NCBI GenBank assembly: GCA_021399345.1
Contig: JAAFKI010000170.1
Coordinates: 1 to 44,304, forward strand
Reading direction: 5' to 3'
Length of the DNA stretch: 44,304 nt
From: Candidatus Heimdallarchaeota archaeon
GTDB lineage: Archaea; Asgardarchaeota; Heimdallarchaeia; Heimdallarchaeales; Heimdallarchaeaceae
Part shown: positions 12,296-41,278 of the stretch, piece by piece
Layout of the letters: each line of letters begins with the position of its first letter
Position numbering within the stretch: position 1 is the first letter of the stretch
Made by a program: the position numbers and the translations under genes
The notes under the pieces: generated by a model
What the model was told of the DNA's origin: nothing
The model's input: the letters and a program-made list of their open reading frames with translations, nothing else
Databases searched by the model: none

Positions 12296-12302
12296 AAGAA
12301 TC

Positions 12303-12662: not shown

Positions 12663-12684
12663 TTGGGATTCAATTGGTGTTTTT

Positions 12685-12987
12685 TTGATTTCACATCCGT
12701 CTATTGAAATTAGGAATGAAGAAATTTTTTTATCAATTAGAGTTCATCCAAAATCTTCAGTAAATAGGATTGATGTTACTGATTTTTCGATAGATATCTA
12801 TGTTAAGGAGCCAGCAGATAAAGGAAAAGCAAATAGATCAGTATTAAGTTGCTTAGCTAAAACATACAAAATTCCCTCCTCTTCTCTTTCTATTTCTCGA
12901 GGGTTAAAGTCCAGAAATAAAATAATTGTAATAAAGGATCAAAATAATGATTTACTTTTTAAGAAAATAATTGGAAAGCGTTTTTAG
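12685..12987 (+). CDS. DUF167/YggU family protein
   Basis: IRVHPKS, EPADKGKAN and GLKSRNK motifs. Confidence 0.9.
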   Translation: MISHPSIEIRNEEIFLSIRVHPKSSVNRIDVTDFSIDIYVKEPADKGKANRSVLSCLAKTYKIPSSSLSISRGLKSRNKIIVIKDQNNDLLFKKIIGKRF

Positions 12988-22048: not shown

Positions 22049-22528
22049 TCAAACAACGATATTTAGGAGTATGAATGCAATTAGCAGACCATAAATTGCT
22101 AACGCCTCACCAAGACCTAGATAAATCAGATTTGGTGTGAACACTTCTGAATTTGCTGTTATTGAACCAATAGCTGCTGGCTCTCCTTTTGCAAGTGTAA
22201 TTGCTGCTCCTAGATTAGATACAACCATAATGAACATAGCTGCAATGTAAATCCAACCGTAAGTTAGACTAAAATCTGCTAATTGCAAAGTACCATCAAG
22301 ATAAGGTTGAATCTTCGTATACATTACAAATGCTATTAAGAGCCCATATATAGCTAAGGCCTCCGCTAAAGCTAAATAGATTAATATGAAAATATTTAAT
22401 CTCTGCTTTTCTGCAACAGCTGCAGCAGCTGCTTGAACTCCTTTTGCTAGCGGAATACCAGCTCCCAAAATTGTTAGCATAGTTCCTGCGATTCCAATTA
22501 TTCCTAATACATATCCTTCAATTGCCAT
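22049..22528 (-). CDS. atpK: A/V-type ATPase proteolipid subunit K (c), two-hairpin 16-kDa form
   Basis: Two repeats, LALAEALAIYGLLIAF and LGLGEALAIYGLLIAF. Confidence 0.92.
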   Translation of the reverse strand: MAIEGYVLGIIGIAGTMLTILGAGIPLAKGVQAAAAAVAEKQRLNIFILIYLALAEALAIYGLLIAFVMYTKIQPYLDGTLQLADFSLTYGWIYIAAMFIMVVSNLGAAITLAKGEPAAIGSITANSEVFTPNLIYLGLGEALAIYGLLIAFILLNIVV

Positions 22529-24572
22529 ATTTACTCAAATCCATTTCTTTATTGAAAACAAAAACTGGTTTATGTTGAATTCCACTTCCTTCATAGAATT
22601 TACTGAAGAATTCATAAAAATGTAATCTTAAAGTTTGAACAAAAACTAATAAACCTTCAAGAACTAGTACAAAGATATTACCAATTACTAAAATTAGTAT
22701 TTTAAAGAGAATAAACCCAACTTGTTCAGCTAATGCATTAATAACACTCAGGAAAACCGCATGAGCAATGAGCATTGCAAGCATTCTTCCATAAGAAATA
22801 GTGTTACTTATGAAAGAGCTGAATGATTCTAGAAGGTGAATTAACCCCATCCCCATTCCACTAAGAAAACTACGAAATATATTTTTTCTCTTCTTTTTGA
22901 ACAAGATAGCCACAATCCCATGACCAAAAAGCGTTAATCCTACTCCAATAATGACAGAAACAAGCCCAACTAAAAGAAAGCCTCTACCTGCTGGATCAAT
23001 TCCAATGTTTAGAATTCCAAGGCTGGAAAGAAAATATATAATTGCAGCATAAAGAAAAACTTGAGGAGTTGTTTGTTCTAATATTTCTGAATACTCCTTA
23101 TGTCTTATTTGATTTATTGTTCTAAGAATTATTCCTAAAATGACATGAAGAGCTCCTATTATCAAAGTTAAGTTGAAAATTTCTACTAAATCCTTAATTG
23201 GACTTATAAAGGGATATTCTAATCCAAATAGATATACTGGGTTAGTATACCCATGTTCTCTAATCCCTAATATCTCAACAATATGAAAACCAAAGGCTTC
23301 ACCAAAAATGAATCCCATGATTGACGAAGTTATACCCATTACTAGTACAAGTAAAAACATTTGCCTAATACTCTTTTTCAACCCCCTAGCCAATACTCCA
23401 GTTAAACCAATTACAAGAAAAATTAGACCGTGACCTACATCACCAAACATAATTCCAAAGAAAATACTAAATGTAAAAATTAAGAAAATCGTTGGATCGA
23501 CCTCGTTAGATGCAGGTAGTCCATAAAGAGCTACAATATTCTGAAATGCGCTCTTAATAGGATTCTTTGCAGTAGCTACAGGGATATTTTTCATCTCTTC
23601 TGGAGGTTCATCATATTCCAGTATTACTTCTGGAAACTCACCTATAGTTTCCTCAATTATCCCAATTTCCTTTTCTGATACCCATCCTTGAAAAACTACT
23701 ATTTTCTTGGTTTGCTTTGCGGAAACGTATATGTTTAAGAAGTGACTATAGCTTTCGATTGACAATTTTATTGCAACAATGTCTTCTTTGTGTTTTATTG
23801 CAAATTGATTTAGGTCATTTTCGATTTTAGATACTTCTTCACTTAAGTTATTAAATTCATTTAGAATTTCTTCCTCAAGTTCAGTTTTGTTTAAATGAAT
23901 CGGACCTTGATAGTTGTATTTATACCATCTTACAATAGATAGTTCTTTGATAAGTTTGGATATTTCTCCTTTTTTTCCTCTAACGTAAACAAAATGTCTA
24001 TCTTTAACTAAGGAAATTACTTCTTGTTTCTTAAAATGGGAAACAAAGTTTTCCGCATCTTCTATTCTAGATGTTGTTAATACACCTATTAATGCACTCT
24101 CATCAGAATCTACGTTATACGGCTGTTCTTCTTCTATAAGTCTAAAACCTTTAGCAATTAGTTGGTCATTTTCTTTTAATTCAGTAAGTTCTTCCAACTT
24201 ATTCTTTAAATTCTTAAGTTCACTGTTAAAGTTACTAATCTGATTTTCTAGTTTTGTTTCTATATCTTCTAAATTATCCCAGTTCTCAAAAATAGGTGAT
24301 ATCGTTTTCTGTTTTTTATAAGCTCTAGCTATTTTTTGTCTAAATTTCTCTTTAGGCTCAGGAATTTGAACTATAAGATCTTTATAAGCTGATTCTAATT
24401 GTCTAATTGTTTCCATTTTGGATGATGGATAAAAGTCTTCCAATCCGTCTATCGATATACTGTGCTTTACCATCAAACTTTCTGTTTCAGCTATTCTAAT
24501 AACTACTTGAGGAAACACATCTTTTGGTGTTATTATCGTTGCTTCTAACATTTTATCTGGAAATAAACCCAT
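22518..24572 (-). CDS. atpI: A/V-type ATPase subunit I (a)
   Basis: FQGWV, YGLP...EVDPT, FFGIMFGDVGHG, SNTISYGRMLA (essential Arg), LRLHFYEFFSKFY. ATG 24572 follows an AGGTGA SD; alternative GTG at 24581. Confidence 0.95.
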   Translation of the reverse strand: MGLFPDKMLEATIITPKDVFPQVVIRIAETESLMVKHSISIDGLEDFYPSSKMETIRQLESAYKDLIVQIPEPKEKFRQKIARAYKKQKTISPIFENWDNLEDIETKLENQISNFNSELKNLKNKLEELTELKENDQLIAKGFRLIEEEQPYNVDSDESALIGVLTTSRIEDAENFVSHFKKQEVISLVKDRHFVYVRGKKGEISKLIKELSIVRWYKYNYQGPIHLNKTELEEEILNEFNNLSEEVSKIENDLNQFAIKHKEDIVAIKLSIESYSHFLNIYVSAKQTKKIVVFQGWVSEKEIGIIEETIGEFPEVILEYDEPPEEMKNIPVATAKNPIKSAFQNIVALYGLPASNEVDPTIFLIFTFSIFFGIMFGDVGHGLIFLVIGLTGVLARGLKKSIRQMFLLVLVMGITSSIMGFIFGEAFGFHIVEILGIREHGYTNPVYLFGLEYPFISPIKDLVEIFNLTLIIGALHVILGIILRTINQIRHKEYSEILEQTTPQVFLYAAIIYFLSSLGILNIGIDPAGRGFLLVGLVSVIIGVGLTLFGHGIVAILFKKKRKNIFRSFLSGMGMGLIHLLESFSSFISNTISYGRMLAMLIAHAVFLSVINALAEQVGFILFKILILVIGNIFVLVLEGLLVFVQTLRLHFYEFFSKFYEGSGIQHKPVFVFNKEMDLSKYGN

Positions 24573-24581
24573 TTTCTTCAC

Positions 24582-25226
24582 CTATGCAAACAGAATCTCA
24601 TTTATTTTAGTTCTAATTTTATCTCTACTGGATTTCAATGTGTTTTCAATTGTATAATCAATCCTAATTCTCCCATAATCATCTGTGAGAATGAACCCAC
24701 CTTGTGTCTTCAAAGTCGAGACATCTACTTTGAAGTTTACCTTTTCCTTTTGAGCAATATTTGATGTGATTTTATTTAATATTTCCTTATCCTTTTTATC
24801 TGCAATAATTTTCATACTTTGTGCAGTGATGTTCCTTATTGTATAAATGAGAAGATTTTCTAAATATTTTGAATATCCTTTATTATCTCTCAATAATAGC
24901 ATTTCCTTTTTTACATGCTCGAAGACCTGATCAATCATACCTTCTCTAGCTTGAATAACTATTTTCTTTGCTTTTTGTTCAAATTCAGTCTCTGTTCTTT
25001 TTTTAATAAAATCCAATCTAGAGGTTTCTTTTTCCAACTCTTGTTTTTTAACTTCATCAACTTGTTTTTTAGTTCCCTTTTCTATCTCTTCCAATTTTTG
25101 TTTAGCTTCCCTATTTAGAATTTTAGCTTCTTCTTCCGCAGCATTCTTGATTTTGATAATCAGTCTTGTTAATGGACTGCTTTCAGTGTCTTCTTCGGGG
25201 AGCTCTTCATTTTTCATTTTCATCAC
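24582..25226 (-). CDS. atpE: A/V-type ATPase subunit E
   Basis: N-terminal coiled coil, GGFIL...IRIDYTIE, ILF end. Confidence 0.88.
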   Translation of the reverse strand: MMKMKNEELPEEDTESSPLTRLIIKIKNAAEEEAKILNREAKQKLEEIEKGTKKQVDEVKKQELEKETSRLDFIKKRTETEFEQKAKKIVIQAREGMIDQVFEHVKKEMLLLRDNKGYSKYLENLLIYTIRNITAQSMKIIADKKDKEILNKITSNIAQKEKVNFKVDVSTLKTQGGFILTDDYGRIRIDYTIENTLKSSRDKIRTKINEILFA

Positions 25227-25227
25227 T

Positions 25228-25656
25228 TTATACTGGAAAAAGTAAGACAGGTGTTTCTGACAATTCGACTACATACCTAACATAGTTTTTCAATAGTCTT
25301 TTTGTATAACTTTCCTTCCTTGTTCCCATAACTATGAAATCAACCTTTTCAGTTTTAGAGGTTTCAATTATTCTTTCAGCAACTAATCCTTGATCTAGTT
25401 CAGAAGTCATTAACAAATGAGTATCTGAAAAAGCAAGCTTGAGTTTTTCAAGAATGTTAGCATACTGAATGTGATATTCTTCTAGAATATGTTCAATAGT
25501 TGTGTTTCTATAACTAGCTAGAAGTTCTACATTTTCTCTATCAATTACATACAACAAATGTATTTCTGTAACCCAATCAAAGAAGAAATCAAGAATTTGA
25601 GAGATTAGATTTTTACCGCTTTCAAAATCTCCTATTGCAATAAGTGCTTTTTTCAT
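25228..25656 (-). CDS. Universal stress protein (UspA family)
   Basis: KKALIAI, IHLLYVID, GLVAERIIE, DFIVMG and TPVLLFP. Confidence 0.85.
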   Translation of the reverse strand: MKKALIAIGDFESGKNLISQILDFFFDWVTEIHLLYVIDRENVELLASYRNTTIEHILEEYHIQYANILEKLKLAFSDTHLLMTSELDQGLVAERIIETSKTEKVDFIVMGTRKESYTKRLLKNYVRYVVELSETPVLLFPV

Positions 25657-26300
25657 TAATTTCTCCTCTTTATTTTATTTTTTAACTCTATTTTTTGTTT
25701 GAGTTTTTTGATAGTATAGATACTCTCCAATTCATATGATTCTAACGCTTCCTCAATATATTTGACTATATTCCCAAATCTCACTCGGTATACTTTATCC
25801 AAAGCATTAAGACTTAATTGTGTAGATTGAAGATTACGAATTACTTTGTATGCAAAATTCTCAACTTCTGCTAATTCAACAATTAAATCAAATAAATCAC
25901 GAAATCTTTTTGCAGTTATCCACAGTGAACTAGATATTCCGAAGAATCCATATGATGGATCAGGGAGATTGGCTAACTGTAAATCAGAGTAAGACACGCC
26001 CATATATTCAAGAGGAATAGAATCTACCAAGACCTCTTTAGGGATTGTTTCACTAAAAACATTAATCATATCTTTTCCTAATTCTGATTCAGTTTTGATA
26101 TATTCATAATAAGCATCACTAAGATTTTCCTCCATTTTCTCTCTCATCAAAATTGCTTGTGATGAGATGATATGTAATTTCATTAATAATGCTTCATATT
26201 TCTCTCTTAGTAAATCGTATGCTCTTTCAACTAATTGGAGCTTTTTCTTGTATTTTAACAAGTTATCCTTTGTTGGAGGAACATTAATTACTTCTCTCAA
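25656..26300 (-). CDS. atpD: A/V-type ATPase subunit D
   Basis: PPTKDNLL, LLREKYEAL, MGV, LAEVE and NAL motifs; TTGA overlap with the atpB stop. Confidence 0.92.
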   Translation of the reverse strand: MREVINVPPTKDNLLKYKKKLQLVERAYDLLREKYEALLMKLHIISSQAILMREKMEENLSDAYYEYIKTESELGKDMINVFSETIPKEVLVDSIPLEYMGVSYSDLQLANLPDPSYGFFGISSSLWITAKRFRDLFDLIVELAEVENFAYKVIRNLQSTQLSLNALDKVYRVRFGNIVKYIEEALESYELESIYTIKKLKQKIELKNKIKRRN

Positions 26301-27691
26301 TCTGAATCAGCTCCTTTATTATGGATATGTTCCCGAATTAGATCTTCAGATACTTTGGTTAATTCAGTTTCTGGAAGATTGGATAATAACGACCATCCAA
26401 GATTTAAAGAATCTTCATTTGATCGGTAGACATCCCCTTGGTTCACAAAATTATCTTCAAATTTATCTGCAAACTCATACAAAATCTGATCTCGACGGTT
26501 TAGCTCCTTTTTTCCAATTACTTCTGCAAGTCTTCTCTTATCTAATCCTTCAGCATAAGACGCATAAAGTTGATTGCTTAAAGAAGGATGGTCCTTTCTT
26601 GTATAACCTTCTCCAATTCCGTCTTTCATTAAACGAGAAAGCGACCCCAAAACATCAATTGGCGGATAAATTCCTCTATTATGTAAAGAACGATCGAGGA
26701 TAATTTGACCTTCTGTAATATAGCCTGTCAAGTCAGGAATAGGGTGAGTAATATCATCATTTGGCATTGTCAAATTTGCAATTAGAGTAATGCTTCCTTG
26801 TGAATCTTCTATTATTCCTGCTCTTTCGTATATTGAGGCTAAATCCGAATACATGTAACCAGGAAAACCCTTTCTAGATGGTACAGTTTCTAGAGCAACT
26901 GAAATTTCTCTTAAAGCCTGACAATAATTAGTTATATCAGATAATATTGCTAGAACATGGTAGCCCTTATCAAAAGCTAGATACTCAGCAGTTGTTAATG
27001 CAACTCGAGGAGTTATAAGTCTCTCAGCAGCTGAATCACTTGCCAAATTAGTATACATTACAACTTTGTTTAGAGTACCTGTTTCTTCAAATAGGCGCTG
27101 GAAATAGATGTAATCATCCATTGTCAAACCCATGGCACCAAAAACAATAGCAAATTTATCTTCACTATCTGCTCCTACAATTCTTGCTTGTTTCACTATC
27201 TGGCCTATCAGCTGATTGTTTGGTAACCCAGCTCCAGTAAAGATAGGTAATTTTTGACCTCTTACTAATGTGTTCATTGAATCTATTGAAGAAATTCCTG
27301 TTTCGATGTAATCCCTTGGATAAATTCTAGATGTTGGGTTGATTGGGGATCCATTAATATCCCTGTATTCATCTGAATAGATGCTGGGTAATCCATCCAA
27401 CGGCTCTCCTTGAGAGTTAAATACTCTACCAATCATATCTTCAGCTACAAAAAGCTGCATAGTTCTTCCAAAAAATTCAGTTTCAATTTCATCCTTTTCT
27501 AGTTCATATGTACCTTGGTAAAGCAGAATGATGACTCTTTCCTCTTCAATTGCTAAAACTCTACCTTTTCTAGAAGGTTTGTTTGGCAGATTAACTTCTA
27601 AATATTCTCCCATACGGATACCTGTAACACCTTCTATGATAATGATTGGTCCTCGAATTTCTGATACTCCACTAACTGTTATACGAGCCAT
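26297..27691 (-). CDS. atpB: A/V-type ATPase subunit B
   Basis: RGQKLPIF, PGYMYSDL, DDITHPIPDLTGYITEGQI and SLSRLM. Confidence 0.97.
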   Translation of the reverse strand: MARITVSGVSEIRGPIIIIEGVTGIRMGEYLEVNLPNKPSRKGRVLAIEEERVIILLYQGTYELEKDEIETEFFGRTMQLFVAEDMIGRVFNSQGEPLDGLPSIYSDEYRDINGSPINPTSRIYPRDYIETGISSIDSMNTLVRGQKLPIFTGAGLPNNQLIGQIVKQARIVGADSEDKFAIVFGAMGLTMDDYIYFQRLFEETGTLNKVVMYTNLASDSAAERLITPRVALTTAEYLAFDKGYHVLAILSDITNYCQALREISVALETVPSRKGFPGYMYSDLASIYERAGIIEDSQGSITLIANLTMPNDDITHPIPDLTGYITEGQIILDRSLHNRGIYPPIDVLGSLSRLMKDGIGEGYTRKDHPSLSNQLYASYAEGLDKRRLAEVIGKKELNRRDQILYEFADKFEDNFVNQGDVYRSNEDSLNLGWSLLSNLPETELTKVSEDLIREHIHNKGADSD

Positions 27692-27694
27692 TCA

Positions 27695-29497
27695 TCACAC
27701 CTTATATCCGTATTTAGAACCTAGTTCCTCCATATCTGTATGGATGTAATCTTCTATTTTGTTCATTTTGATTATATTGTCATTTTGGATGTCTTCTTTC
27801 ATTCGTTTTAATATCTGAACTGTTTTTAAACTAATAATTAAAGAGATTGGGCACCCATTCTTAATTAGAACCTCAGCTCTATTATAAAATAGAAGCATAA
27901 GTTTCATCATTTTCATTTGTTTTTCAATAGGACAGAAAGAATCAATCTTATCAAAGGCATTTTGCTGGAGAAATCCTTCTTTAATTATTTCTGCTACTAA
28001 TATGATTAACTGTTCATCAGCAGGTAATGCCTTTGAACCAATTAGCTCAGCAATATGTTGAAGCTCATCATCTTTTTGTAAAATTGTAAACATCTCTTGC
28101 CGATAACGACCCCAATCCTCCAAATTGGCCTCTAAAGCCCATTCTTCTATTATTTTTATATATCCTGAATAACTGTTTAGCCAGTTAATTGAAGGGAAGT
28201 GCTTTCTGTTTGCTAAATTGGAATCTAGACCCCAAAAAGTCTTTACAAAACGTTTTGTATTTGCAGTAACTGGTTCACTAAAATCACCACCGGGAGGAGA
28301 AACAGCAGCAGTAATGTTAATTGACCCCTCTCTATATGGAGCGCCTAATGTAACAACTTGACCCGCTCTTTCATAGAAGTTAGCTAACCTAGCCCCTAAA
28401 TATGCAGGATATCCTTCTTCTACTGGCATCTCTTCTAATTGTCCGGCTATTTCTCTCAAAGCTTCTGCCCAACGACTTGTACTATCTGCAGTAAGTAAAA
28501 CGCTGTATCCCTGGTCTCTATAGAATTCAGCCATAGTTATTCCCATGTAAATTGAGGCTTCTCTAGCTGCAACAGGCATATTAGAAACATTAGCGATTAA
28601 CAATGTTCTATCCATGAGTGGGTTTTGAGTGTGTGGATCTACAAGTTTAGGAAATTCTCTCAAAACCTCAGTCATTTCATTTCCTCTCTCTCCACAACCA
28701 ATGTATACAACAACATCAGCATTACTCCATTTAGATAATTGATGCTGAAGGATAGTCTTACCTGTTCCAAATCCTCCTGGAATTGCAGCAGTTCCACCTT
28801 TGGTAATCGGGAAGAACATATCTATTATTCTTTGACCCGTTACAAGAGGTTCAGACACAGGTAATTTTTTTAAGAATGGTCTGGCAACTCTTACAGGCCA
28901 TTCGTGCATTAAAGTTAATTCTTTCTTCTTTTTATCTGATCCTTCTAACTCAGCTATAGGATCTGTGATCTTAAATTCTCCTTTATCTTGAATGGATAGT
29001 AATTCCCCATTTGTATTAGGAGGAACAAGAATATTACACTTTATTGTTTCTGTCTCTTGAACAAAGCCTAATACATCACCTCCTTTCACCAAATTACCTT
29101 TTGTTAAATCTTTACTTGGTTCGAACTGCCATTTTTTGTGTCTATCTAAGGCATTGATATGAATTCCTCTTTGGATAAATGATGAAGATGTTGCTTTCTT
29201 TATTTGCTCTAATGGCCTTTGAATTCCATCAAAAATATTAGATAATAATCCTGGACCAAGTTCAGCTGAAAGAGATTTTCCTGTAAGGTGAACCGGATCA
29301 TTTATCTTCAATCCCTCAAGTGGTTCATAAACCTGAACTGTAGCAAAATCTCGTTCAATTTCGATAATTTCACCTATGAGTCTTTCTTCTCCAACATAGG
29401 TTATTTCTCCCATCCTATACGATGAAAGACCTCTAACTTCAACAGTAGAACCTTTTATTGTTACAATTCTGGCTCTTTCTTTAGTTGACTGAGGCAT
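27695..29497 (-). CDS. atpA: A/V-type ATPase catalytic subunit A (no intein)
   Basis: ELGPGL, GGFGTGKT, GCGERGNE, NMPVAAREAS, DSTSRWAEALRE and SPPGGDFSEPVT. Confidence 0.98.
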   Translation of the reverse strand: MPQSTKERARIVTIKGSTVEVRGLSSYRMGEITYVGEERLIGEIIEIERDFATVQVYEPLEGLKINDPVHLTGKSLSAELGPGLLSNIFDGIQRPLEQIKKATSSSFIQRGIHINALDRHKKWQFEPSKDLTKGNLVKGGDVLGFVQETETIKCNILVPPNTNGELLSIQDKGEFKITDPIAELEGSDKKKKELTLMHEWPVRVARPFLKKLPVSEPLVTGQRIIDMFFPITKGGTAAIPGGFGTGKTILQHQLSKWSNADVVVYIGCGERGNEMTEVLREFPKLVDPHTQNPLMDRTLLIANVSNMPVAAREASIYMGITMAEFYRDQGYSVLLTADSTSRWAEALREIAGQLEEMPVEEGYPAYLGARLANFYERAGQVVTLGAPYREGSINITAAVSPPGGDFSEPVTANTKRFVKTFWGLDSNLANRKHFPSINWLNSYSGYIKIIEEWALEANLEDWGRYRQEMFTILQKDDELQHIAELIGSKALPADEQLIILVAEIIKEGFLQQNAFDKIDSFCPIEKQMKMMKLMLLFYNRAEVLIKNGCPISLIISLKTVQILKRMKEDIQNDNIIKMNKIEDYIHTDMEELGSKYGYKV

Positions 29498-33335: not shown

Positions 33336-36176
33336 TTGCGTGTAACCTTTTTGTTACCAATTTTGTTGAAAGAAAACGTTGATAAACTTTCACTGAAAAC
33401 TCATTTATTGGAAGGTTATAGTGAATTGTCACCAGAAGAGAGTAGGCACAAAGATAGCAAGAAATTAGAGGAAGACTATGATGAAGAGCTTTCTCAAATT
33501 GCTACTAGATATAATATTGAGTTTGATAATAATAAAGAAACTCTTTCTATTAATCTAGCTCTAAAAGGACAAGAAGCTTTAACCAAAGGTCAAATCGAAT
33601 CAGCAGAAGAAATTTGTGATGTGCTCTATAGTCTTGCAAGTAAGTGGAAAGATGACTTCACAAAAATGAAAACACTATTACTGAATGCTCAGATTGCAAA
33701 TTACAAAGGAGAATCGCAGTTAGAATATCTTGAAAACGCTCTTTCCTTAGCTAAAAAAATCAAAATTCTTGATATTGAAATTGGAATAAGGGTTCAACTA
33801 GCTTTTGATTATTACAAAAGACGAAACTACAAGAAAGTCCTCAAAGAGATTAAGAAAATCCAAAAACATCCCGAGTTTTTCTCTGAAAATGCAACAATAG
33901 TACTTGAGCTCCAATCTAGAACCTATTGGGAAATAGATGAATATGTCAAAGGATTTGACTCTACTCTTAAATGGTTTGACGTTCTAAAAAGCTCTCTAAA
34001 TGATGTATATTCTATTTTTCTTGTTATTGTTTATCTTCTGACAGTAATGAATTCTTTAGATCTCCCATATGCTAAAGAAAAGCTTGATGAGATTAAAAAT
34101 AGCATTTATGGCTTTTTAACACAGTTGGGTTCAGCTTCCCATGTATTTTCAGAAATACTGAATAATATTGATGTTTTGTTTGCCAAATCCCTTATGCTTG
34201 TAGAACCCGAAATTTTGTATCAATTTGCAGATTTACTTCTACAATCTTCCAGATGGAATGATGAGGAAAAGTACTTATTTTTGTGTCAAAAACTGTCAGA
34301 TGCTTTTTATAATATTGACGACTTCAAGAAAGCTCAAAGTTTAATGGAAAAAGCATATCAGTTCGCTAAAGAGAAGAAATATTCTGAAATTGAATCTCTT
34401 ATAAAACATAAACTGACAGAGATTTCTAGTTTGATATTCTATTTTATGTCTTTTAATCCTCTATTTGATCCATTTAGTGCAAAATCTATTACTATAAACA
34501 CTGATGATCTCAAGAAACAGTTATATCTACAAGTCATGAGCCCTATTACCAATAATTTTCCAACAACTTCTTATTCACAGTTTCTAAGAATTATCGAAAA
34601 AGCATCATATAGTTACATACATGAAAAATCGCTGAAAATAGACGGGTTTACTGTTGAAGAAGAACGGTGTTTTTTCGTTCTTGATTTAGAGATAGAAAAT
34701 GAAAGAATAATGCTTCTTATGAAAGAAGATTTCAAAGTAGATCCTGCAGAATATCAGACATTACACTCAACCTTATCTCCTTATTATTCAGTTATTGGTT
34801 TATTATCAGATGAAAGAAAAAGTACAATGAATGAAATTGATGATATTGAAGAAGTTTTACTAAAAGTTCAAAGAGCTATCAATTGTCCTGCTTCTAAAGC
34901 AATTATTTACTTGCCAGAGAAAAATCCTCAATTAAATCTATTCCGATTCTATCTCCAAGAAGGTGGTTTTAGAGATCTTAAAGTTAAAATCTTAGATTCA
35001 GTCTTGAAACTAAAGACTTCATTTGATTTCCTGAAAATTCCAGATATTTTGCAAATTTTTCAAGCAGATCCTATAACCATCTTTGATCTCTCTCTGAGAG
35101 ATGTTGATAATCTGAATCCATTATCGAAATTAATTACTAATGCTTATGGAGTTAATGTATCATCTGAAACAATGCACGATTTCTTCCAAGCTTTAATTGA
35201 AGATTTCCAGAAAAGAAGTGATACAAGATTCTGGAAAGATTTTTACTATCAATATGCTTGGTTGCAAACAAAGGGGATCTATCTATCTATATCAAATGAG
35301 TTCCACGAGAAGAAAAAAGCTTTAAACGATAAATTGGTTGAAATTGCAAATAAACTAGGTGAGGGGGAGAAAATTTTGGAGAGCCTATATTATCGAACTT
35401 TTATGGGAATTGTTACTAAGAGTGACAACTTCATGCAAGATTTTGAGGTTCTTAAAGCTAAATCAAAAAGTCATAAAAGCAGGAAATTCGGTGTTATATC
35501 TAAACTTATCCAGCTTTTTATAGATGAAAATTTAGATGAGGAGTACAATTTGGTTGAAACTCTCAATTTACTCTGTGAATTATGTGAATTCAAAGATTGG
35601 GACATTTTATTGGAATTATTTATCTATCTTCTTGGTGAGTTACATGAGATTAAACCTCTTTTTGAAATATGTAAAGAGCGAGATGTTAAAGACAGCGGAA
35701 TATATCTATATCTGCACCTAATTAAACATTTAATCAAAATCGAGAGACATAATTCAGCTAGTGAACTGCTAAGCTGGGTTCTTAATACAATAAATAGTCG
35801 GAAAGAGAATTTTCACTTCTCTGAACACATTTGGGATTATCTATTTGTTACAGCAAATACATACATGTATTCCCTTACTAGTGAAGTTCCTGATGAAACC
35901 TTAAAGAAATTTGGTGTGGATAAAAATGACGTTATTCGAAGCTTATTAGATAAAAAAGAATGGATTACCGATCCCTTATTCCTTGTTGAACTTCTTAACG
36001 ATTATATCTTAACATTACTTGATAATTCGAACTTCTCTGAGGCTGAAAAACACTATCGCTGGGTTGAGCAATTAATGTTCTATTACTGGGATATATTCAC
36101 CAACGAAAATAACAAAGATTTACTGAAAAACGTTAACGAAATTAAAAAGAGAATCGAAAGTCAACACTTCATATAA
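33336..36176 (+). CDS. Large alpha-helical (TPR-like) hypothetical protein
   Basis: Long ORF with TPR/SNAP-like segments (YLENALSLAKK, LSDAFYNIDDFKKAQSLMEKAY). True start may be the TTG at 33426. Confidence 0.65.
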   Translation: MRVTFLLPILLKENVDKLSLKTHLLEGYSELSPEESRHKDSKKLEEDYDEELSQIATRYNIEFDNNKETLSINLALKGQEALTKGQIESAEEICDVLYSLASKWKDDFTKMKTLLLNAQIANYKGESQLEYLENALSLAKKIKILDIEIGIRVQLAFDYYKRRNYKKVLKEIKKIQKHPEFFSENATIVLELQSRTYWEIDEYVKGFDSTLKWFDVLKSSLNDVYSIFLVIVYLLTVMNSLDLPYAKEKLDEIKNSIYGFLTQLGSASHVFSEILNNIDVLFAKSLMLVEPEILYQFADLLLQSSRWNDEEKYLFLCQKLSDAFYNIDDFKKAQSLMEKAYQFAKEKKYSEIESLIKHKLTEISSLIFYFMSFNPLFDPFSAKSITINTDDLKKQLYLQVMSPITNNFPTTSYSQFLRIIEKASYSYIHEKSLKIDGFTVEEERCFFVLDLEIENERIMLLMKEDFKVDPAEYQTLHSTLSPYYSVIGLLSDERKSTMNEIDDIEEVLLKVQRAINCPASKAIIYLPEKNPQLNLFRFYLQEGGFRDLKVKILDSVLKLKTSFDFLKIPDILQIFQADPITIFDLSLRDVDNLNPLSKLITNAYGVNVSSETMHDFFQALIEDFQKRSDTRFWKDFYYQYAWLQTKGIYLSISNEFHEKKKALNDKLVEIANKLGEGEKILESLYYRTFMGIVTKSDNFMQDFEVLKAKSKSHKSRKFGVISKLIQLFIDENLDEEYNLVETLNLLCELCEFKDWDILLELFIYLLGELHEIKPLFEICKERDVKDSGIYLYLHLIKHLIKIERHNSASELLSWVLNTINSRKENFHFSEHIWDYLFVTANTYMYSLTSEVPDETLKKFGVDKNDVIRSLLDKKEWITDPLFLVELLNDYILTLLDNSNFSEAEKHYRWVEQLMFYYWDIFTNENNKDLLKNVNEIKKRIESQHFI

Positions 36177-36434: not shown

Positions 36435-39050
36435 ATGTCTTCTGAACACGATATAGCTATAATCTGTGTGGGGTATAGGGACAGTCCTTTCACAAAAGAA
36501 ATAATTCAAAATGACATAATCCCTTATTCTATAATAGCTAATAACTCAAGTGATTTCCAAATCCATCACGCCGATCCCTCAAAGATACTTTTTTACAGCC
36601 TTGAATTCACCAAAATAATTGAAATTATTGCTAAGAAAAGTATGGATTCATTAGCAGTTTTTGAAACCTTAGGACAATTTTTTGAATTTTACAATCCCTT
36701 ACATCTTTCAACTCTTAATTACTTAATATCAAAGTATGCTACTAGTATAAAACCTAAAAATAAAGAATACATGCAGGCATGGAAAAACATCACTACTACC
36801 ATATTTGACCGTGAATTTATTTACCCACTATTTGAAGAGAGTAGAATTTTCCATATTAAAGAAGGAGAAGTGGAAATTCCAGTACGTCAATTCCTTATTT
36901 CGTCTGAATTAGAAAAGAAAAAAGATAACTCAAAGAATAACAATAAAGCTCTAGATCAAGTTCTTGAAGGTATTACAGGTATAATAGATCTTGAAGAAAA
37001 TAGTAAAATGAAAATAAGCTCTAGTGCTGTAAGAAAAATCACCTCAGCATCAGCCGTTATCATAATTCCTACAGATATAGTTTCTTTATTCATTTTGTTC
37101 AATTCCAATCACTTCAAAGAAACTTTACAAAAATCTCATGGAGAAATAGCGATTATTTCCCCATTCTGGCCTGGTAATGAGATTAGTAAAATTGAAAAAG
37201 AAATACTTCAAAAAACAAATTTTGATGCAAATCTTGTTAATGTTGCAAAATTGGTTAAAGACTGTGTGGATGCAGTAATAATTGATACAAAGGACACTGA
37301 TCTAGTTCCTTCTCTCAGAGAAGAAGGGGTTACCGTTTTAGTGGAAGATTTATCTCCAGAAAACCAATCAACACAAGAATTTCTGGATACAGTTCTGAAA
37401 AGTATTGAAATTTCATTAGATACAATCGCTGTTGAACCTCAAGGTTTGATTGAAGGTTTAGGAGAAAAACTTGTCAGTTTATTTAGAGTTCGAGAACCTA
37501 AACAAGAAAAAGAAGAAGCTAAAGCTAAGACACTTGAAATCTCAGTTAAAGAGGAAGATCTAGAACTTATAGAATCAATATTTGAGGAAGGGATTTCAGT
37601 AGATGAACCAAAGAAAATGGAAACTGAAATATCAGAAGATTTCTCAGAATCTGATACTCTTACAGACGAGTTTGAAATGGAAGTAATTGAAACTGAAGAA
37701 ACTATTCAATCAATACCTACTCCACCTCCAAAAGATGCGAGTATGGATAGTGGATATTACCAACCAAAAGCTGAAGGTCAGTTTGTACTACCAGGTATTG
37801 AGCAAATTGCACAATTTGAATTGGAAGAATTAGATTCTTTAGATGTTGATGAACACATCATAACTTCTTTTATTGAAAGAGCAATGACAAGCAATGCAAC
37901 AGGAGTGGAAGTTGTCTTTTCTGATTTATTATCTTTACAAAACAATCCTCTATTAATAGATAAAATCTTTCAAACAATACTTAAGCGATTGATAAAAGTA
38001 AGAGAGCTAAATCCAGAAGAGAAAATTGCTGATATGATCACCTACTTATCTGCCCACAAGCCTGAGTATTATCACGAAAAGCTGAACACTTTGCTTGAAG
38101 ATACTCTTAACTCTGAAGAAGAAAAAGGATTTTATCAGAATCTAAAAACAACTTCTTTAGTTGTTAGAAGTTCTTTACTTATTGCAGGGGATGTAATTGA
38201 GAAATTCTTGCAAAAGAATATTGTTATTGCAGATGCTTATGTTGAAGATAGATTGAAACGCATGGTTAACGCTTTTGGAGTTGCTAGTATTGATTTATTA
38301 CAATTAATATGCAGAATTCTTGTGAATATATACAAGCAAGAATTGGAAAAGGAAGAATTAGATGAAACTATAACTCGAAGAATTATTACATTTTTAACTA
38401 TGTTTGATGGACTTAGTGTAGCTATAGCTCTGGTAACATTAGGGTCAGAAGTAGCATTAGAATCTATTACAAATGCTATTAAGGAGATGGCTTTGAATAA
38501 CTCCTTTAAGAAGATAATTACAGATGTTTTAACTGTCTTTAATGAAGGTTCTTATGAAGATTTGGTGAAAACTTTTCAAGGACGTATTTTGCCCGAAAAC
38601 GTCGAATTTGAGATGATGAAAAAGAAATACATCACCAGTCTTTCTAAAGTGGGTTCAATACCGTTAGAAATATTCGCTGAAAGAATTGGATTATCAGTTG
38701 ATAAAGCAGAAAAAATGATTTATGATATGATTTTGCAAGAAGAAATTCCAGCAAGAATTGAATTAGTTAGCGGAAGACTCTACATCGTTCAAGATATTGA
38801 TGAAACTGAGGTTATAACGGAAGAATCAACTGAAGAGATAACAGGAGAGACAAAGGAAACCCATGAAAAAACTGATGAAAAAGTAGAACAACTTGATCAG
38901 AAAGAAGTTTCAGAGGCACTCGAAGAGCATCCTGAGCAAATGCTAACTGAAGAGATTTTAGAGAAAGAATTTGCTTGTACTCAATGTCAGAAATCTTTCA
39001 AAACAGAAAGAGGTTTAAAAATACATGTAAGCAGGGTTCATAAAGAATAA
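36435..39050 (+). CDS. Multidomain protein: degenerate CofD/YvcK-like domain, acidic linker, helical repeats + PCI winged helix, C-terminal C2H2 zinc finger
   Basis: ASAVIIIP...IAIISP...VAKLVKDCVDAVIID (CofD-like); SIPLEIFAERIGLSVDKAEKMIYDMILQEEIPARI (PCI WH); CTQCQKSFKTERGLKIHVSRVH (C2H2). Confidence 0.7.
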   Translation: MSSEHDIAIICVGYRDSPFTKEIIQNDIIPYSIIANNSSDFQIHHADPSKILFYSLEFTKIIEIIAKKSMDSLAVFETLGQFFEFYNPLHLSTLNYLISKYATSIKPKNKEYMQAWKNITTTIFDREFIYPLFEESRIFHIKEGEVEIPVRQFLISSELEKKKDNSKNNNKALDQVLEGITGIIDLEENSKMKISSSAVRKITSASAVIIIPTDIVSLFILFNSNHFKETLQKSHGEIAIISPFWPGNEISKIEKEILQKTNFDANLVNVAKLVKDCVDAVIIDTKDTDLVPSLREEGVTVLVEDLSPENQSTQEFLDTVLKSIEISLDTIAVEPQGLIEGLGEKLVSLFRVREPKQEKEEAKAKTLEISVKEEDLELIESIFEEGISVDEPKKMETEISEDFSESDTLTDEFEMEVIETEETIQSIPTPPPKDASMDSGYYQPKAEGQFVLPGIEQIAQFELEELDSLDVDEHIITSFIERAMTSNATGVEVVFSDLLSLQNNPLLIDKIFQTILKRLIKVRELNPEEKIADMITYLSAHKPEYYHEKLNTLLEDTLNSEEEKGFYQNLKTTSLVVRSSLLIAGDVIEKFLQKNIVIADAYVEDRLKRMVNAFGVASIDLLQLICRILVNIYKQELEKEELDETITRRIITFLTMFDGLSVAIALVTLGSEVALESITNAIKEMALNNSFKKIITDVLTVFNEGSYEDLVKTFQGRILPENVEFEMMKKKYITSLSKVGSIPLEIFAERIGLSVDKAEKMIYDMILQEEIPARIELVSGRLYIVQDIDETEVITEESTEEITGETKETHEKTDEKVEQLDQKEVSEALEEHPEQMLTEEILEKEFACTQCQKSFKTERGLKIHVSRVHKE

Positions 39051-39166: not shown

Positions 39167-40168
39167 ATGCTAATTTGTTTGTTCAGGTTAGAGGATGTTG
39201 GTCCAAACTTAGTTGAAATGGTATTAGACAGAAATGTTGAATTTGATCAGGATACAATAGATAAATTCACATTCTCAGGGTCAGTTACTTATTCTCTAGT
39301 TTTTCAAGGAATGGTTACTCTTGAAGATATGTCTTCAGAACTTTATGGTCCTTTTCCATTTGCTTTTTCTTCAGGGTTCGTTCAATATGCTTTTTCATTT
39401 ATTGCTGCCGATAAGACAATGAAAGACAAAAGGATGAAAGAAAAAACCCTTGGTTTAATTATTATGCTTGTACCAGAGATGGTTTCAAAGATAGATACCT
39501 TTAGGGAAGAATTGGCTAAGGTTCTATTATACAAGTTTCATAAAGTTTACAAAATTAATCAAGTTAATACAGTTTTTCTAAAAGATATCATTAGCTCCTA
39601 TAATAAAATATTACAGGATCTCCTAAGTTTTAAGCAAGCAGATTTATTATCTGAACAAATACTAGCGTTTCTACAAGTGAAGGAAAGACCTAGAAAGAAA
39701 GAAACTATTATTGATATTGGAATTATCTATCCTAAAGAATACACTAGTTTTATTAAGAAATATTATGCTTCCCTATTAGGTTCCTTACCTTATACCGAAA
39801 CCGCTTATTCAGAAGACAAAGCAGTTATCAAAACTCAAACACATGCGTTTAGTTTTGTAATGGATTCGAAAGTTGAGGACAATTTTTTGAATAAACAAAG
39901 TGCATTAATTCTTTTAGCAAATGTTAAAGGAAAGAAATTCTCAACTCTTTATCAAGTATTAAAAAAACTCAAGTCTAAACCTAAGATAGCATTAGTCGTT
40001 TCCCTTCCAGACAATATTGAAAAAGCAAGTGGTGAGTATGCAAAATTCTTTACAGGTCTTCAAAGATACATTGGAGATTTACCATTCTTTTCTGCAAGTT
40101 TTAATACAAATTATGAATTTAAAACAAAAATGTTAGAAGCTCTTTTTTGGACACTTTCACCAGATTAA
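39167..40168 (+). CDS. Longin/uDENN-like N-terminal domain plus degenerate small-GTPase-like C-terminal domain
   Basis: CLFRLEDVGP, LYGPFP and DKRM motifs; the C-terminal half has Ras-like beta/alpha order ending LPFFSAS. Confidence 0.5.
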   Translation: MLICLFRLEDVGPNLVEMVLDRNVEFDQDTIDKFTFSGSVTYSLVFQGMVTLEDMSSELYGPFPFAFSSGFVQYAFSFIAADKTMKDKRMKEKTLGLIIMLVPEMVSKIDTFREELAKVLLYKFHKVYKINQVNTVFLKDIISSYNKILQDLLSFKQADLLSEQILAFLQVKERPRKKETIIDIGIIYPKEYTSFIKKYYASLLGSLPYTETAYSEDKAVIKTQTHAFSFVMDSKVEDNFLNKQSALILLANVKGKKFSTLYQVLKKLKSKPKIALVVSLPDNIEKASGEYAKFFTGLQRYIGDLPFFSASFNTNYEFKTKMLEALFWTLSPD

Positions 40169-40180
40169 TTTGTGCTAAAT

Positions 40181-41278
40181 TTACATTATTTTACTTGATT
40201 TCTGTTTAATAATTTCTTCTTGTATATCAACACCAATTCCAAATCCTTGAGGAACGGATATTGTTCCATCATCATTCAATTCGAAGATTGGATCTATAAT
40301 GTAGTCAGAATAATATCTTGCACTTTCGCTAATATCGTTTGGTAATGAAAAAGTGTTCAGACTTGCAACTGCAACGTTCTTAGCCCTTCCTATTCCTGTC
40401 TCTAACATTCCCCCACACCATAAAGGAACTTTAACTAATTCTGATAATTCGTGAATTAGTAGAGTTTCAGTTATTCCCCCCACTCTTGCAGGTTTTACAT
40501 TAATGATTTTGCAAGCATCTATTTCAACAGCAACTCTTGCATCATCAACACTTTTTATCGATTCATCCAAGCATATTGGAGTAGCTAGTTCCTTCTGAAG
40601 TGAAGCATGGTCAATAATATCAAAATACTGTAATGGTTGCTCGATCATCATTAGATTATATCTATCTAAGTTAACGAAAATATCCTTATCTTTTAGCCTA
40701 TAGGCACTGTTAGCATCTACCATTAAAGGTAAATTTGGATACTGATCTCGTATTCGTTTAATTATTTCAACATCCCAACCTGGTTCAATTTTAATCTTAA
40801 TTCTTTGATAATTTTTTTCTAGAGCTGCCTTAATCTTATCTAGAAGAATATCGGGATTTTGTTGAATTCCTAATGAAATTCCTGAAGGTATTTTTTCTTT
40901 TGTCCCTCCAATTAATTTTTGTAAAGATTTCTTATTTAATCTGCCGAAAAGGTCCCAAATAGCATCTTCAACACATGCTTTTGCCATTTGATTACCTTTT
41001 ATACTTTTACAGATATCCTTGAATTCTTTAGGATGATGTAGTTCTTTTTCTTTAATCCAAGGTATGATGAATTTTGAAATTATGTTGGTGCAAGAACTAA
41101 TGGTTTCTCCAGAGTACCAAGGACCGTTCTCTGATACACACTCTCCCCAACCTTGTTCTCCTTCAGACTCTAAACAGACAAGTAGCATTTCACGCTCTTT
41201 TGTTTCTCCAAAACTTGTTCTGAATGGATGTCGTAAGTTCATTTTAATTAGGTAAAGACCAGCTTCTTCTATTTTCAT
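40181..41278 (-). CDS. menC: o-Succinylbenzoate synthase / N-succinylamino acid racemase (NSAR/OSBS, enolase superfamily)
   Basis: FRTSFG, RIKIKI, VDANSAY, IEQP, LDES, NVKPARVGG, WCGGMLETG and DIS. Confidence 0.9.
   Translation of the reverse strand: MKIEEAGLYLIKMNLRHPFRTSFGETKEREMLLVCLESEGEQGWGECVSENGPWYSGETISSCTNIISKFIIPWIKEKELHHPKEFKDICKSIKGNQMAKACVEDAIWDLFGRLNKKSLQKLIGGTKEKIPSGISLGIQQNPDILLDKIKAALEKNYQRIKIKIEPGWDVEIIKRIRDQYPNLPLMVDANSAYRLKDKDIFVNLDRYNLMMIEQPLQYFDIIDHASLQKELATPICLDESIKSVDDARVAVEIDACKIINVKPARVGGITETLLIHELSELVKVPLWCGGMLETGIGRAKNVAVASLNTFSLPNDISESARYYSDYIIDPIFELNDDGTISVPQGFGIGVDIQEEIIKQKSSKIM

What the first reader, a model, noticed from the sequence alone, without database searches (positions are those of the whole stretch)
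36435..39050. Novel fusion: inactivated CofD-like enzyme domain + PCI domain + C2H2 zinc finger
Seen: residues ~1-325 follow the CofD/YvcK pattern (IYPLFEE..., ASAVIIIPTD, IAIISP, VAKLVKDCVDAVIIDTKD, GVTVLVED). The N-terminal GG loop (here CVGY) and the PDLD motif (here ADPS) are lost. A ~130-aa acidic linker and a helical solenoid lead into a textbook PCI winged helix (~38500-38790), then a second acidic linker and a C-x2-C-x12-H-x4-H finger (38976-39041). Known: CofD binds GDP/Fo in F420 synthesis and YvcK binds UDP-sugars; PCI domains build the proteasome lid, COP9 signalosome and eIF3. Inference: a metabolic enzyme repurposed as a ligand sensor on a PCI scaffold. I know of no described protein with this architecture.
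Basis: partly seen in the sequence, partly recalled or inferred. Interest (0 to 1): 0.8.

Follow-up and report, generated by a model that had tools for sequence, protein, structure and literature searches.

The report
CofD-fold head on PCI scaffold
An 871-residue protein conserved in Heimdall-group Asgard archaea joins a remodelled copy of the F420-synthesis enzyme CofD to a eukaryote-style PCI scaffold and a swappable nucleic-acid-binding tail; the architecture is real and I found no paper describing it, but its function is only inferred.

Summary
ORF 36435..39050 (+) encodes 871 aa in six parts:
- 1-345: a CofD-fold domain (VIA Z 23.0 to CofD 3c3e; profile-profile 99.7 %, E 3e-25 against true CofDs).
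- 346-459: an acidic linker.
- 460-715: a helical solenoid.
- 716-790: a PCI winged helix (Pfam 29 bits, cut-off 22; best fold matches are proteasome, COP9 signalosome and eIF3 entries).
- 791-844: a second acidic linker.
- 848-869: a C-x2-C-x12-H-x4-H finger.

The architecture is conserved throughout the window's class and in one other Asgard family. The genome also keeps a genuine CofD elsewhere.

"Inactivated" is only half right. The Gly-rich loop, GDxD and PSNP motifs are replaced, but by residues that are themselves invariant. E57, invariant in the whole superfamily, sits where FbiA's metal ligand D57 sits.

The tail is swappable: C2H2, helix-hairpin-helix or Lys/Pro repeats. A model supports, but does not show, a symmetric homodimer through the solenoid.

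Best reading: a dimeric, nucleic-acid-tethered scaffold or regulator with a neofunctionalised ligand-binding head.

This scan has already found and followed up the same family in other genomes (e1-5645863).

The parts
36435..39050 (+). Whole gene, 871 aa (P0001), stop codon included
   Evidence: ORF list and translation. 69 homologs, most of them full length, all from Asgard archaea.
36435..37469 (+). Residues 1-345: CofD-fold head, remodelled. Residues conserved across the whole superfamily: G13, D40, E57, P131, R151, D214, D279, G298.
   Evidence: AF2 pLDDT 82.9. Foldseek 3c3d E 4.9e-12. VIA Z 23.0, rmsd 3.2 A, 277 aligned. hhalign against true CofDs 99.66 %, E 3e-25. TIGR01819 E 1.1e-6 but only 27.9 bits against a cut-off of 257. 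Conservation.
37470..37811 (+). Residues 346-459: acidic, poorly conserved linker with one conserved island, T-D-E-F-E-M-E (410-416; window 37662-37682), followed by PTPPPK (428-433)
   Evidence: 27 % D+E, pI 4.1, identity falls to 13-15 % in distant homologs. The motif [DEQ][EQ]F[ED]M[ED] is present in 46 of 67 long homologs. No Pfam family.
37812..38579 (+). Residues 460-715: helical-repeat solenoid, the helical part of the PCI module. The predicted symmetric homodimer interface spans residues 480-718.
   Evidence: AF2 model of 455-800: pLDDT 79, about 14 helices. Foldseek and VIA matches to proteasome, COP9 signalosome and eIF3 entries cover helices plus winged helix. Dimer model.
38580..38804 (+). 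Residues 716-790: PCI winged helix (H-E-H-H-E-E)
   Evidence: Pfam PCI 29 bits, cut-off 22, residues 726-784. 31.7 bits in the genome scan. Secondary structure. Invariant K729, Y732, K738, G740, S741, F747, A748, E759, K760, Y783.
38805..38966 (+). Residues 791-844: second acidic linker, not conserved
   Evidence: 37 % D+E; identity 29 % falling to 0 % across homologs.
38967..39047 (+). Residues 845-871: single classical C2H2 zinc finger (C848, C851, H864, H869; F846, F855, L861 as core), basic (pI 9.3)
   Evidence: Regex hit at 848-869. zf-C2H2 22.2 bits on the isolated tail and 18.5 on the whole protein, both below the cut-off of 25.2. The same finger is kept in 36 of 69 homologs.

Best explanation
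Shown: the gene encodes a conserved, Asgard-specific multidomain protein.
- Its head descends from the F420-biosynthesis transferase CofD, not from YvcK. It has lost CofD's signature motifs, while a genuine CofD is kept elsewhere in the genome.
- Its body is a true PCI module: a helical solenoid followed by a winged helix.
- Its tail is an interchangeable nucleic-acid-binding element, here one C2H2 finger.

Inferred: the head no longer makes F420-0. It has been refitted, under strong purifying selection, to bind a different small ligand, probably phosphorylated or nucleotide-like, possibly through a retained acidic metal site (D40/E57). A further possibility is that it also dimerises as CofD and FbiA do.

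Inferred: the PCI solenoid forms a two-fold symmetric homodimer. The flexible acidic linkers let the tail, and perhaps the winged helix, hold the dimer on DNA or RNA.

The protein would then act as a ligand-responsive, nucleic-acid-tethered scaffold or regulator, not as a metabolic enzyme. The ligand, the nucleic-acid target and any partners are unknown.
For: Fold and homology of the head.

The head is closer to CofD/FbiA than to YvcK:
- VIA Z is 22-23 for CofD/FbiA and 13.6-18.8 for UPF0052 structures.
- P0001 hits TIGR01819 and not TIGR01826.
- A profile search of 1.84 billion proteins reaches about 300-aa proteins at E 5e-11 to 1e-3. One of them is named LPPG:FO transferase of Heimdallarchaeota.

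A genuine CofD (302.5 bits, cut-off 257) lies on another contig. The fusion is therefore not needed for F420 synthesis.

Remodelling, not decay:
- Head identity to five homologs is 71/54/52/46/42 %. That matches the winged helix and exceeds the solenoid's 61/41/35/20/25 %.
- E57, R151 and D214 are invariant, and G13, D40, P131, D279 and G298 nearly so, across 34 members down to 16-27 % identity.
- E57 aligns with CofD D47, which is FbiA D57, the bidentate metal ligand. D40 lies at or one residue from FbiA D45 (PMC7253369).

PCI module.

Tail swapping among 69 homologs: 36 C2H2, 7 helix-hairpin-helix, about 14 Lys/Pro/Thr repeats.

Homodimer model of residues 455-800:
- ipSAE 0.76 against a best control of 0.00.
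- In the calibration, 20 of 30 proteins solved as homo-pairs and 1 of 23 solved as single chains reached the mark.
- The three runs share at least 88 % of contacts, and the partner's pLDDT is at least 78.
- This supports binding but does not show it.

Only this protein and one small UFL1/DDRGK-like protein score as PCI in the genome. That fits self-association better than a six-PCI horseshoe.

CofD and FbiA are themselves dimers (PMC7253369).
Against: - No ligand, nucleic acid or partner has been shown; every functional step is inferred.
- The retained acidic pair and the many invariant polar residues would equally fit a still-active enzyme.
- The predicted dimer interface is not significantly better conserved than the rest of the solenoid (entropy 1.61 against 1.80, p = 0.09).
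- The predicted interface does not use the winged-helix edge that solved PCI complexes use, as far as I recall them. The dimer score is the model's own confidence only.
- Members from the Loki- and Sigyn-labelled clade have no nucleic-acid-binding tail, so tethering cannot be the core function.
- Gene neighbourhood is not conserved across the family and gives no functional hint.
- The D40 mapping is uncertain by one residue, and I could not superpose coordinates.
Confidence: 0.45

Rival explanations
1. The head is still an enzyme. It would be a neofunctionalised metal-dependent phosphotransferase or hydrolase acting on a substrate other than LPPG/Fo, brought to its site of action by the PCI module and tail.
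For: - Acidic residues lie at or next to both FbiA metal-ligand positions (D40, E57). R151, D214 and D279 are invariant or nearly so.
- There are about 19 invariant polar or charged residues in the near subfamily.
- The head is as conserved as any other part of the protein.
- In the Sigyn- and Loki-labelled clade a stand-alone 366-aa paralog of the head lies two genes downstream, next to an NAD(P)-dependent dehydrogenase. That is a metabolic-looking context.
Against: - Of the Gly-rich loop, which I recall as lying at the diphosphate, only G13 remains.
- The GDxD, PSNP and GP motifs, nearly invariant in 27 CofDs, are all changed.
- No enzyme family model scores above its cut-off.
- I know of no enzyme fused to a PCI scaffold.
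Confidence: 0.2
2. It is one subunit of a hetero-oligomeric PCI/MPN complex, an Asgard forerunner of the proteasome lid, COP9 signalosome or eIF3. It would assemble with the genome's MPN/JAB proteins through the winged-helix edge.
For: - It has a true PCI module, and its best fold matches are chains from proteasome, COP9 signalosome and eIF3 entries.
- The genome has two JAB/MPN proteins above the Pfam cut-off.
Against: - Only one other, small, PCI-scoring protein exists in the genome, and it looks UFL1/DDRGK-like. Lid, signalosome and eIF3 use six PCI subunits (PMC1274264).
- No MPN gene is adjacent in any locus examined.
- There is no specific orthology to any one lid, signalosome or eIF3 subunit. 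Sequence-level hits are marginal (eIF3e, E 0.23).
Confidence: 0.1
3. It is a conventional ligand-gated transcription factor. The winged helix itself would be the DNA-reading head, as in wHTH regulators, with the finger, helix-hairpin-helix or Lys-rich tail adding affinity. The solenoid would be only a dimerisation and sensor-coupling device.
For: - A winged helix is combined with three alternative DNA-binding tail types.
- A symmetric homodimer is predicted, which is typical of operator-binding regulators.
- The Pfam PCI model also hits in four control prokaryote genomes, which shows how close PCI and wHTH domains are.
Against: - The winged helix is acidic (pI 4.8) and matches the PCI consensus, not a DNA-reading wHTH family.
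- Tail-less members exist.
- An 870-aa protein with 170 aa of acidic linker is unlike known archaeal regulators.
Confidence: 0.12
4. It is an artefact: a mis-called or chimeric ORF joining separate genes.
For: None found.
Against: The same uninterrupted ORF, 730-1000 aa, is found in many independent assemblies, including closed chromosomes, with no internal stops.
Confidence: 0.01

Closest known systems
CofD / FbiA (2-phospho-L-lactate or enolpyruvyl transferase of F420 biosynthesis; PF01933, TIGR01819; PDB 3c3d/3c3e, 6uvx-6uw7)
   Same: - The whole fold is shared: Z 22-23, about 280 of 305 residues aligned.
- Homology is detectable at profile level (E 3e-25).
- Kept positions: G13 = CofD G8, P131 = P129, P212 = P193, S242-P243 = S224-P225, the D...ID block near D279/D284, and G298.
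- An acidic residue sits at the FbiA D57 position (E57) and another next to D45 (D40).
   Different: - It scores far below both curated cut-offs.
- The GGxG loop, GDxD, PSNP and GP motifs are replaced.
- A longer hairpin turn (ADPSK) and a Lys-rich insert (about 158-178) are present.
- It is fused to about 520 further residues.
- The genome has a separate real CofD.
PCI-domain subunits of the 26S proteasome lid, COP9 signalosome and eIF3 (PF01399)
   Same: - It has the bipartite helical solenoid plus C-terminal winged helix.
- Pfam scores above the cut-off.
- Foldseek E values from 2.7e-5, all ten top hits from proteasome, COP9 signalosome and eIF3 entries.
- VIA Z 11-12, covering helices and winged helix together.
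   Different: - It is prokaryotic and has an enzyme-derived head.
- It is essentially the only large PCI protein in its genome.
- The predicted self-association runs along the solenoid, not edge-to-edge through winged helices.
- No orthology to a particular subunit is detectable.
YvcK / UPF0052 (CofD-related UDP-GlcNAc-binding proteins; TIGR01826)
   Same: It belongs to the same superfamily fold (Z 13.6-18.8). YvcK is a precedent for a CofD-fold protein that works by binding a nucleotide-sugar and is not an F420 enzyme (my own knowledge, together with the NCBIfam name).
   Different: P0001 has no TIGR01826 hit. The structural match is weaker than to CofD/FbiA. The family is bacterial, and I know of no PCI fusion in it.

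Membership tests
CofD/FbiA (PF01933, TIGR01819) | CofD fold over the whole domain | tested here: met
   VIA Z 23.0, rmsd 3.2 A, 277 aligned of 305. Foldseek E 4.9e-12.
CofD/FbiA (PF01933, TIGR01819) | Score above the curated family cut-off | tested here: not met
   TIGR01819 27.9 bits against 257.45. P0001 has no PF01933 hit at E <= 1. Only 3 of 20 close members hit it, best E 3.6e-4.
CofD/FbiA (PF01933, TIGR01819) | N-terminal Gly-rich loop (G7-G8-x-G10 in the genome's own CofD) | tested here: not met
   C11-V12-G13-Y14-R15; only G13 (= G8) is kept.
CofD/FbiA (PF01933, TIGR01819) | Two Asp metal ligands (FbiA D45 and D57, equal to own CofD D35 and D47) | tested here: inconclusive
   E57, invariant in 34 members, aligns with D47/D57. 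D40 aligns one column after D35/D45 (PMC7253369). No coordinates were available for a superposition.
CofD/FbiA (PF01933, TIGR01819) | Nearly invariant G90-D91-x-D93, P-S-N-P (193-196) and G234-P235 | tested here: not met
   S92-T93-x-N95; P212-T213-D214 with no second Pro; no Gly-Pro pair.
CofD/FbiA (PF01933, TIGR01819) | Transfer of 2-phospholactate or enolpyruvyl phosphate to Fo | not testable with these tools
   Needs an enzyme assay.
PCI domain (PF01399) | Score above the Pfam gathering cut-off | tested here: met
   29 bits against 22; 31.7 bits in the genome scan.
PCI domain (PF01399) | Winged helix preceded by a helical-repeat bundle | tested here: met
   AF2 model: about 14 helices followed by H-E-H-H-E-E. 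VIA alignments such as model 107-336 to 9efq_B 190-415, Z 11.4, cover both parts.
PCI domain (PF01399) | Member of a multi-subunit PCI/MPN assembly | tested here: inconclusive
   One other small PCI-scoring protein and two JAB proteins are in the genome, none adjacent. A homodimer model passes.
Classical C2H2 zinc finger (PF00096) | C-x2-C-x12-H-x3-5-H spacing with hydrophobic core (F/Y-x-C ... F ... L) | tested here: met
   EFACTQCQKSFKTERGLKIHVSRVH, residues 846-869. Kept in 36 homologs.
Classical C2H2 zinc finger (PF00096) | Score above the Pfam cut-off | tested here: not met
   18.5 bits on the whole protein and 22.2 on the isolated tail, against 25.2. Orthologs P0019, P0031 and P0033 carry a precomputed PF00096 hit.
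YvcK / UPF0052 (TIGR01826) | Family model hit | tested here: not met
   P0001 has no TIGR01826 hit at E <= 0.01. The fold match is weaker than to CofD.

The most novel reading that the evidence does not exclude
The PCI scaffold fold existed in Asgard archaea before the eukaryotic lid, signalosome and eIF3 complexes. There it would work as a self-sufficient homodimer coupled to a cofactor- or nucleotide-sensing head recruited from F420 metabolism. This protein would then be a living example of a pre-eukaryotic, metabolite-gated PCI machine acting on DNA or RNA.
Probability: 0.15. Interest if true: 0.85.

Novelty: new variant of a known kind. Interest (0 to 1): 0.6.

Why it matters
PCI scaffolds organise three core eukaryotic machines: the proteasome lid, the COP9 signalosome and eIF3. 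Their prokaryotic prehistory is obscure.

This is a full PCI module, solenoid plus winged helix, that is universal in the Heimdall-group class, the Asgard lineage often placed closest to eukaryotes. It is welded to a refitted cofactor-biosynthesis enzyme and to interchangeable DNA- or RNA-binding tails.

It gives a concrete, expressible protein with which to ask two questions: what a lone PCI module does, and how an enzyme fold is recruited as a regulatory head.

Public annotation calls these proteins only 'PCI domain-containing', 'C2H2-type zinc finger' or 'helix-hairpin-helix domain-containing' protein. I found no paper that mentions a CofD-PCI combination.

Tried and rejected
- Single-sequence phmmer of 1-345 against PDB sequences found nothing. 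Only the family profile reached CofD (E 0.0039).
- Pfam on P0001 alone gives no CofD hit.
- The profile of 455-800 against PDB sequences gave only marginal eIF3e winged-helix hits (E 0.23).
- Gene neighbourhood as a functional clue was rejected:
  - The upstream 946-aa helical gene, with the AMP-binding and TPR genes, is kept only in the H. aukensis-type genus.
  - The downstream 333-aa and MenC-like genes are kept only in another genus.
  - Nothing is shared with more distant families.
- Conservation of the predicted dimer interface against the rest of the solenoid was not significant (p = 0.09).
- Literature searches gave no description of the fusion: 'PCI domain' with Asgard; CofD with PCI; Asgard with COP9, lid or eIF3. 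The only Asgard PCI mentions concern ESCRT-linked kinases (PMC10936438).
- The Forouhar 2008 CofD structure paper is not held. Ligand-contact residues other than the two FbiA aspartates could therefore not be mapped.
- I could not obtain model coordinates, so no residue-level superposition on 3c3e or 6uw3 was made.
- No phylogeny of head domains against CofD and YvcK was built. I held no named outgroup sequences and divergence is extreme.
- The linker (346-470) has no Pfam family.
Full report
**The gene.** Window 36435..39050 (+) is one uninterrupted ORF of 871 aa. It lies in AT-rich DNA (about 31 % G+C). It is separated from its co-oriented neighbours by 258 bp upstream and 116 bp downstream of AT-rich spacer. 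The N-terminal Met is invariant in 21 aligned homologs, so the start is sound.

**Relatives.** A word-indexed search found 69 proteins, most of them full length. All named ones are labelled as Asgard archaea:
- Heimdallarchaeaceae or Heimdallarchaeota
- Hermodarchaeota
- Promethearchaeota
- one Thorarchaeota
- one Lokiarchaeota
- Sigynarchaeota

They are annotated only as 'PCI domain-containing', 'C2H2-type zinc finger', 'helix-hairpin-helix domain-containing' or hypothetical proteins.

An exhaustive profile search of 1.84 billion representatives with the head domain found 152 proteins:
- The close family.
- About 25 further long proteins, mostly 700-900 aa, at 16-27 % identity. I took 26 distant hits (22 long proteins and 4 of 337-464 aa): 14 hit Pfam PCI and 8 hit Pfam CofD on their own.
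- About 300-aa proteins matched over the C-terminal half. One of these is named LPPG:FO 2-phospho-L-lactate transferase of Heimdallarchaeota.

In 400 genomes of the phylum, strong matches lying in long ORFs (730-1000 aa where the contig allows) occur in:
- 28 of 30 genomes of the window's family; the other two are fragmentary
- all 16 genomes of three sister families of the order
- most of a fifth family of the class
- all 4 genomes of one family outside the class

Elsewhere only CofD-sized matches appear.

**The head (1-345).**
- The AF2 model from a 20-sequence alignment has pLDDT 82.9 and pTM 0.86.
- All 19 Foldseek hits with E <= 0.001 are CofD, FbiA or UPF0052 structures.
- VIA-align gives Z 23.0 (rmsd 3.2 A, 277 aligned) to CofD 3c3e and Z 22.6 to FbiA. 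UPF0052 proteins score 13.6-18.8, and unrelated folds score 9 or less.
- At sequence level the family profile reaches 3c3d (E 0.0039).
- P0001 alone reaches TIGR01819 (E 1.1e-6).
- A 34-member profile aligns with a 27-member CofD profile at 99.66 % probability, E 3e-25, over 301 columns.

The head is homologous to CofD.

**Is it 'inactivated'?** The genome carries a genuine CofD on another contig: 145 bits with Pfam and 302.5 bits with TIGR01819, whose cut-off is 257. The fusion protein scores 27.9 bits, so it is not a CofD equivalog.

Positions nearly invariant in 27 CofDs map through the profile alignment as follows:

| CofD position | This protein |
|---|---|
| G7-G8 | V12-G13 |
| G90-D91-x-D93 | S92-T93-x-N95 |
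| P193-S-N-P | P212-T-D214 |
| S224-P225 | S242-P243 (kept) |
| G234-P235 | lost |
| P129 | P131 (kept) |

FbiA binds its catalytic metal through D45 and D57 (PMC7253369). By direct alignment these equal D35 and D47 of the genome's own CofD.

In the fusion family, CofD D47 aligns with E57. E57 is invariant in all 34 members, including those at 16-27 % identity. D40, conserved in at least 90 % of members, aligns one column after D35.

D47 of that turn is conserved only in the close subfamily.

The head (71/54/52/46/42 % identity to five homologs) is as well conserved as the winged helix and better conserved than the solenoid. It carries about 19 invariant polar or charged residues in the close subfamily.

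I therefore read it as refitted, not decayed. CofD chemistry is very unlikely. Binding of some ligand, possibly with a metal, is likely. Residual or new catalysis cannot be excluded.

**The body (460-790).**
- Pfam PCI matches residues 726-784 at 29 bits, cut-off 22.
- The AF2 model of 455-800 (pLDDT 79) is a run of about 14 helices ending in an H-E-H-H-E-E winged helix.
- Foldseek's ten best hits (E 2.7e-5 to 4.4e-4) are chains of 26S proteasome, COP9 signalosome and 43S/eIF3 entries.
- VIA gives Z 11-12, with alignments that span both helices and winged helix, for example model 107-336 on 9efq_B 190-415.

Z values of this size are common for helical repeats. The argument therefore rests on the combination of a Pfam hit above cut-off, consistent top hits and joint coverage. 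The second refutation criterion, a winged helix without a preceding bundle, is also not met. No orthology to a particular lid, signalosome or eIF3 subunit is detectable.

**Linkers and tail.** Residues 346-459 (27 % D+E) and 791-844 (37 % D+E) are poorly conserved. The exception is an island, T-D-E-F-E-M-E at 410-416, kept in 46 of 67 long homologs.

The finger C848-x2-C851-x12-H864-x4-H869, with F846, F855 and L861, is a textbook C2H2. It scores just under the Pfam cut-off.

Across the 69 homologs the tail varies:
- 36 have a C2H2 finger.
- 7 have a helix-hairpin-helix (PF14520).
- About 14 have Lys/Pro/Thr-rich repeats.
- One has a hydrophobic tail.
- It is absent or very short in the clade labelled Loki or Sigyn.

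Three unrelated nucleic-acid-binding solutions at the same position argue that many members work on DNA or RNA. They also show that the finger is an accessory, not the core.

**Assembly.** Only one other ORF in the genome scores as PCI. It is a 255-aa protein that looks like UFL1/DDRGK1. Two JAB/MPN proteins exist, on other contigs.

I tested two copies of residues 455-800 with complex prediction:
- ipSAE was 0.76, 0.75 and 0.76, against a best control of 0.00.
- In the tool's calibration, 20 of 30 proteins solved as homo-pairs and 1 of 23 solved as single chains reached the mark.
- The runs share at least 88 % of contacts, and the partner's pLDDT is at least 78.
- The interface is two-fold symmetric and runs along the solenoid (P0001 480-718), not along the winged-helix edge.

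This supports, but does not show, a homodimer. Interface columns are not significantly better conserved than the rest of the solenoid (p = 0.09). CofD and FbiA are dimers too (PMC7253369), so the head may add a second dimer contact. That was not tested.

**Context.**
- In the H. aukensis-type genomes the upstream 946-aa helical protein (29 % identity, E 9e-115), the AMP-binding enzyme and a TPR protein are syntenic.
- In another genus the downstream 333-aa and MenC-like genes are kept instead.
- In more distant families nothing is shared.
- In the Sigyn- and Loki-labelled clade the fusion gene is followed by a roughly 505-aa NAD(P)-dependent dehydrogenase. In the Sigyn loci a 366-aa stand-alone paralog of the head comes next (hhalign probability 100 %, E 1.2e-53). 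Two genomes of the f21 family carry a 374-aa head-like ORF about 3 kb from the fusion gene.

The head is thus an autonomous module.

The most likely working model is a dimeric, nucleic-acid-tethered PCI scaffold or regulator with a neofunctionalised ligand-binding head. Its rivals are an active new enzyme, a subunit of a lid-like complex, and a plain transcription factor.

I found no description of the architecture in the searchable literature. The same family has already been flagged, and once followed up, by this scan in other genomes. My independent tests agree with that follow-up.
- the metal-ligand mapping
- the homodimer model
- the stand-alone paralog
- the tail census

Noticed in passing
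own genome, contig C194, about 11926-12693 (L007:1054-1821, +): A 255-aa protein of tandem winged helices. It hits E3_UFM1_ligase (27.6 bits, cut-off 23.2), PCI (26.3 bits, cut-off 22) and DDRGK (24.3 bits, below 27.8). It could be a UFL1/DDRGK1-like component of a UFMylation-type system in an Asgard archaeon.
   Followed up: partly
L003:10310-12961; the same layout in L004: In Sigyn-labelled genomes the fusion gene is followed by a 508-aa NAD(P)-dependent dehydrogenase (NAD_Gly3P_dh_N, ApbA, Octopine_DH, weak F420_oxidored hits) and then a 366-aa stand-alone paralog of the CofD-like head. The paralog matches at hhalign E 1.2e-53 and is 76 % identical to P0074. L005, a Loki-labelled genome, has the 505-aa dehydrogenase followed by a 322-aa ORF that I did not test. 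Two genomes of the f21 family have a 374-aa head-like ORF about 3 kb from the fusion gene.
   Followed up: partly
window 33336-36176 (+): The upstream 946-aa helical protein has no Pfam or NCBIfam family. It is syntenic with the fusion gene in H. aukensis-type genomes (29 % identity over 911 residues, E 9e-115), together with an AMP-binding enzyme and a TPR protein. It is not adjacent in other genera.
   Followed up: partly
window 39167-41278: The downstream 333-aa protein of no known family and the MenC/MR-MLE enolase-superfamily gene stay next to the fusion gene in one other genus: G011, at 58 % and 66 % identity. An earlier first-reader note calls the 333-aa protein longin-like; I did not test that.
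   Followed up: no
window 37662-37682 (residues 410-416): A conserved island, T-D-E-F-E-M-E, sits inside an otherwise variable acidic linker. It is present in 46 of 67 long homologs and is a candidate short linear binding motif.
   Followed up: partly
P0038 (homolog, 830 aa): One family member ends in a hydrophobic stretch (…VIIAVILIIIGFIIF…) instead of a nucleic-acid-binding tail. This may be a membrane anchor.
   Followed up: no
L001:586-1464 (+), next to the genome's real cofD: A 292-aa protein with a C-terminal Lys-rich repeat (…PSKTA-KTKKVPSKTA…), of the same style as the Lys/Pro tails seen on some fusion-family members. Such tails seem to be a common accessory in this lineage.
   Followed up: no
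window 22518-29497 (-): An A/V-type ATPase operon (subunits I, E, D, B, A) has a universal stress protein gene embedded between D and E.
   Followed up: no
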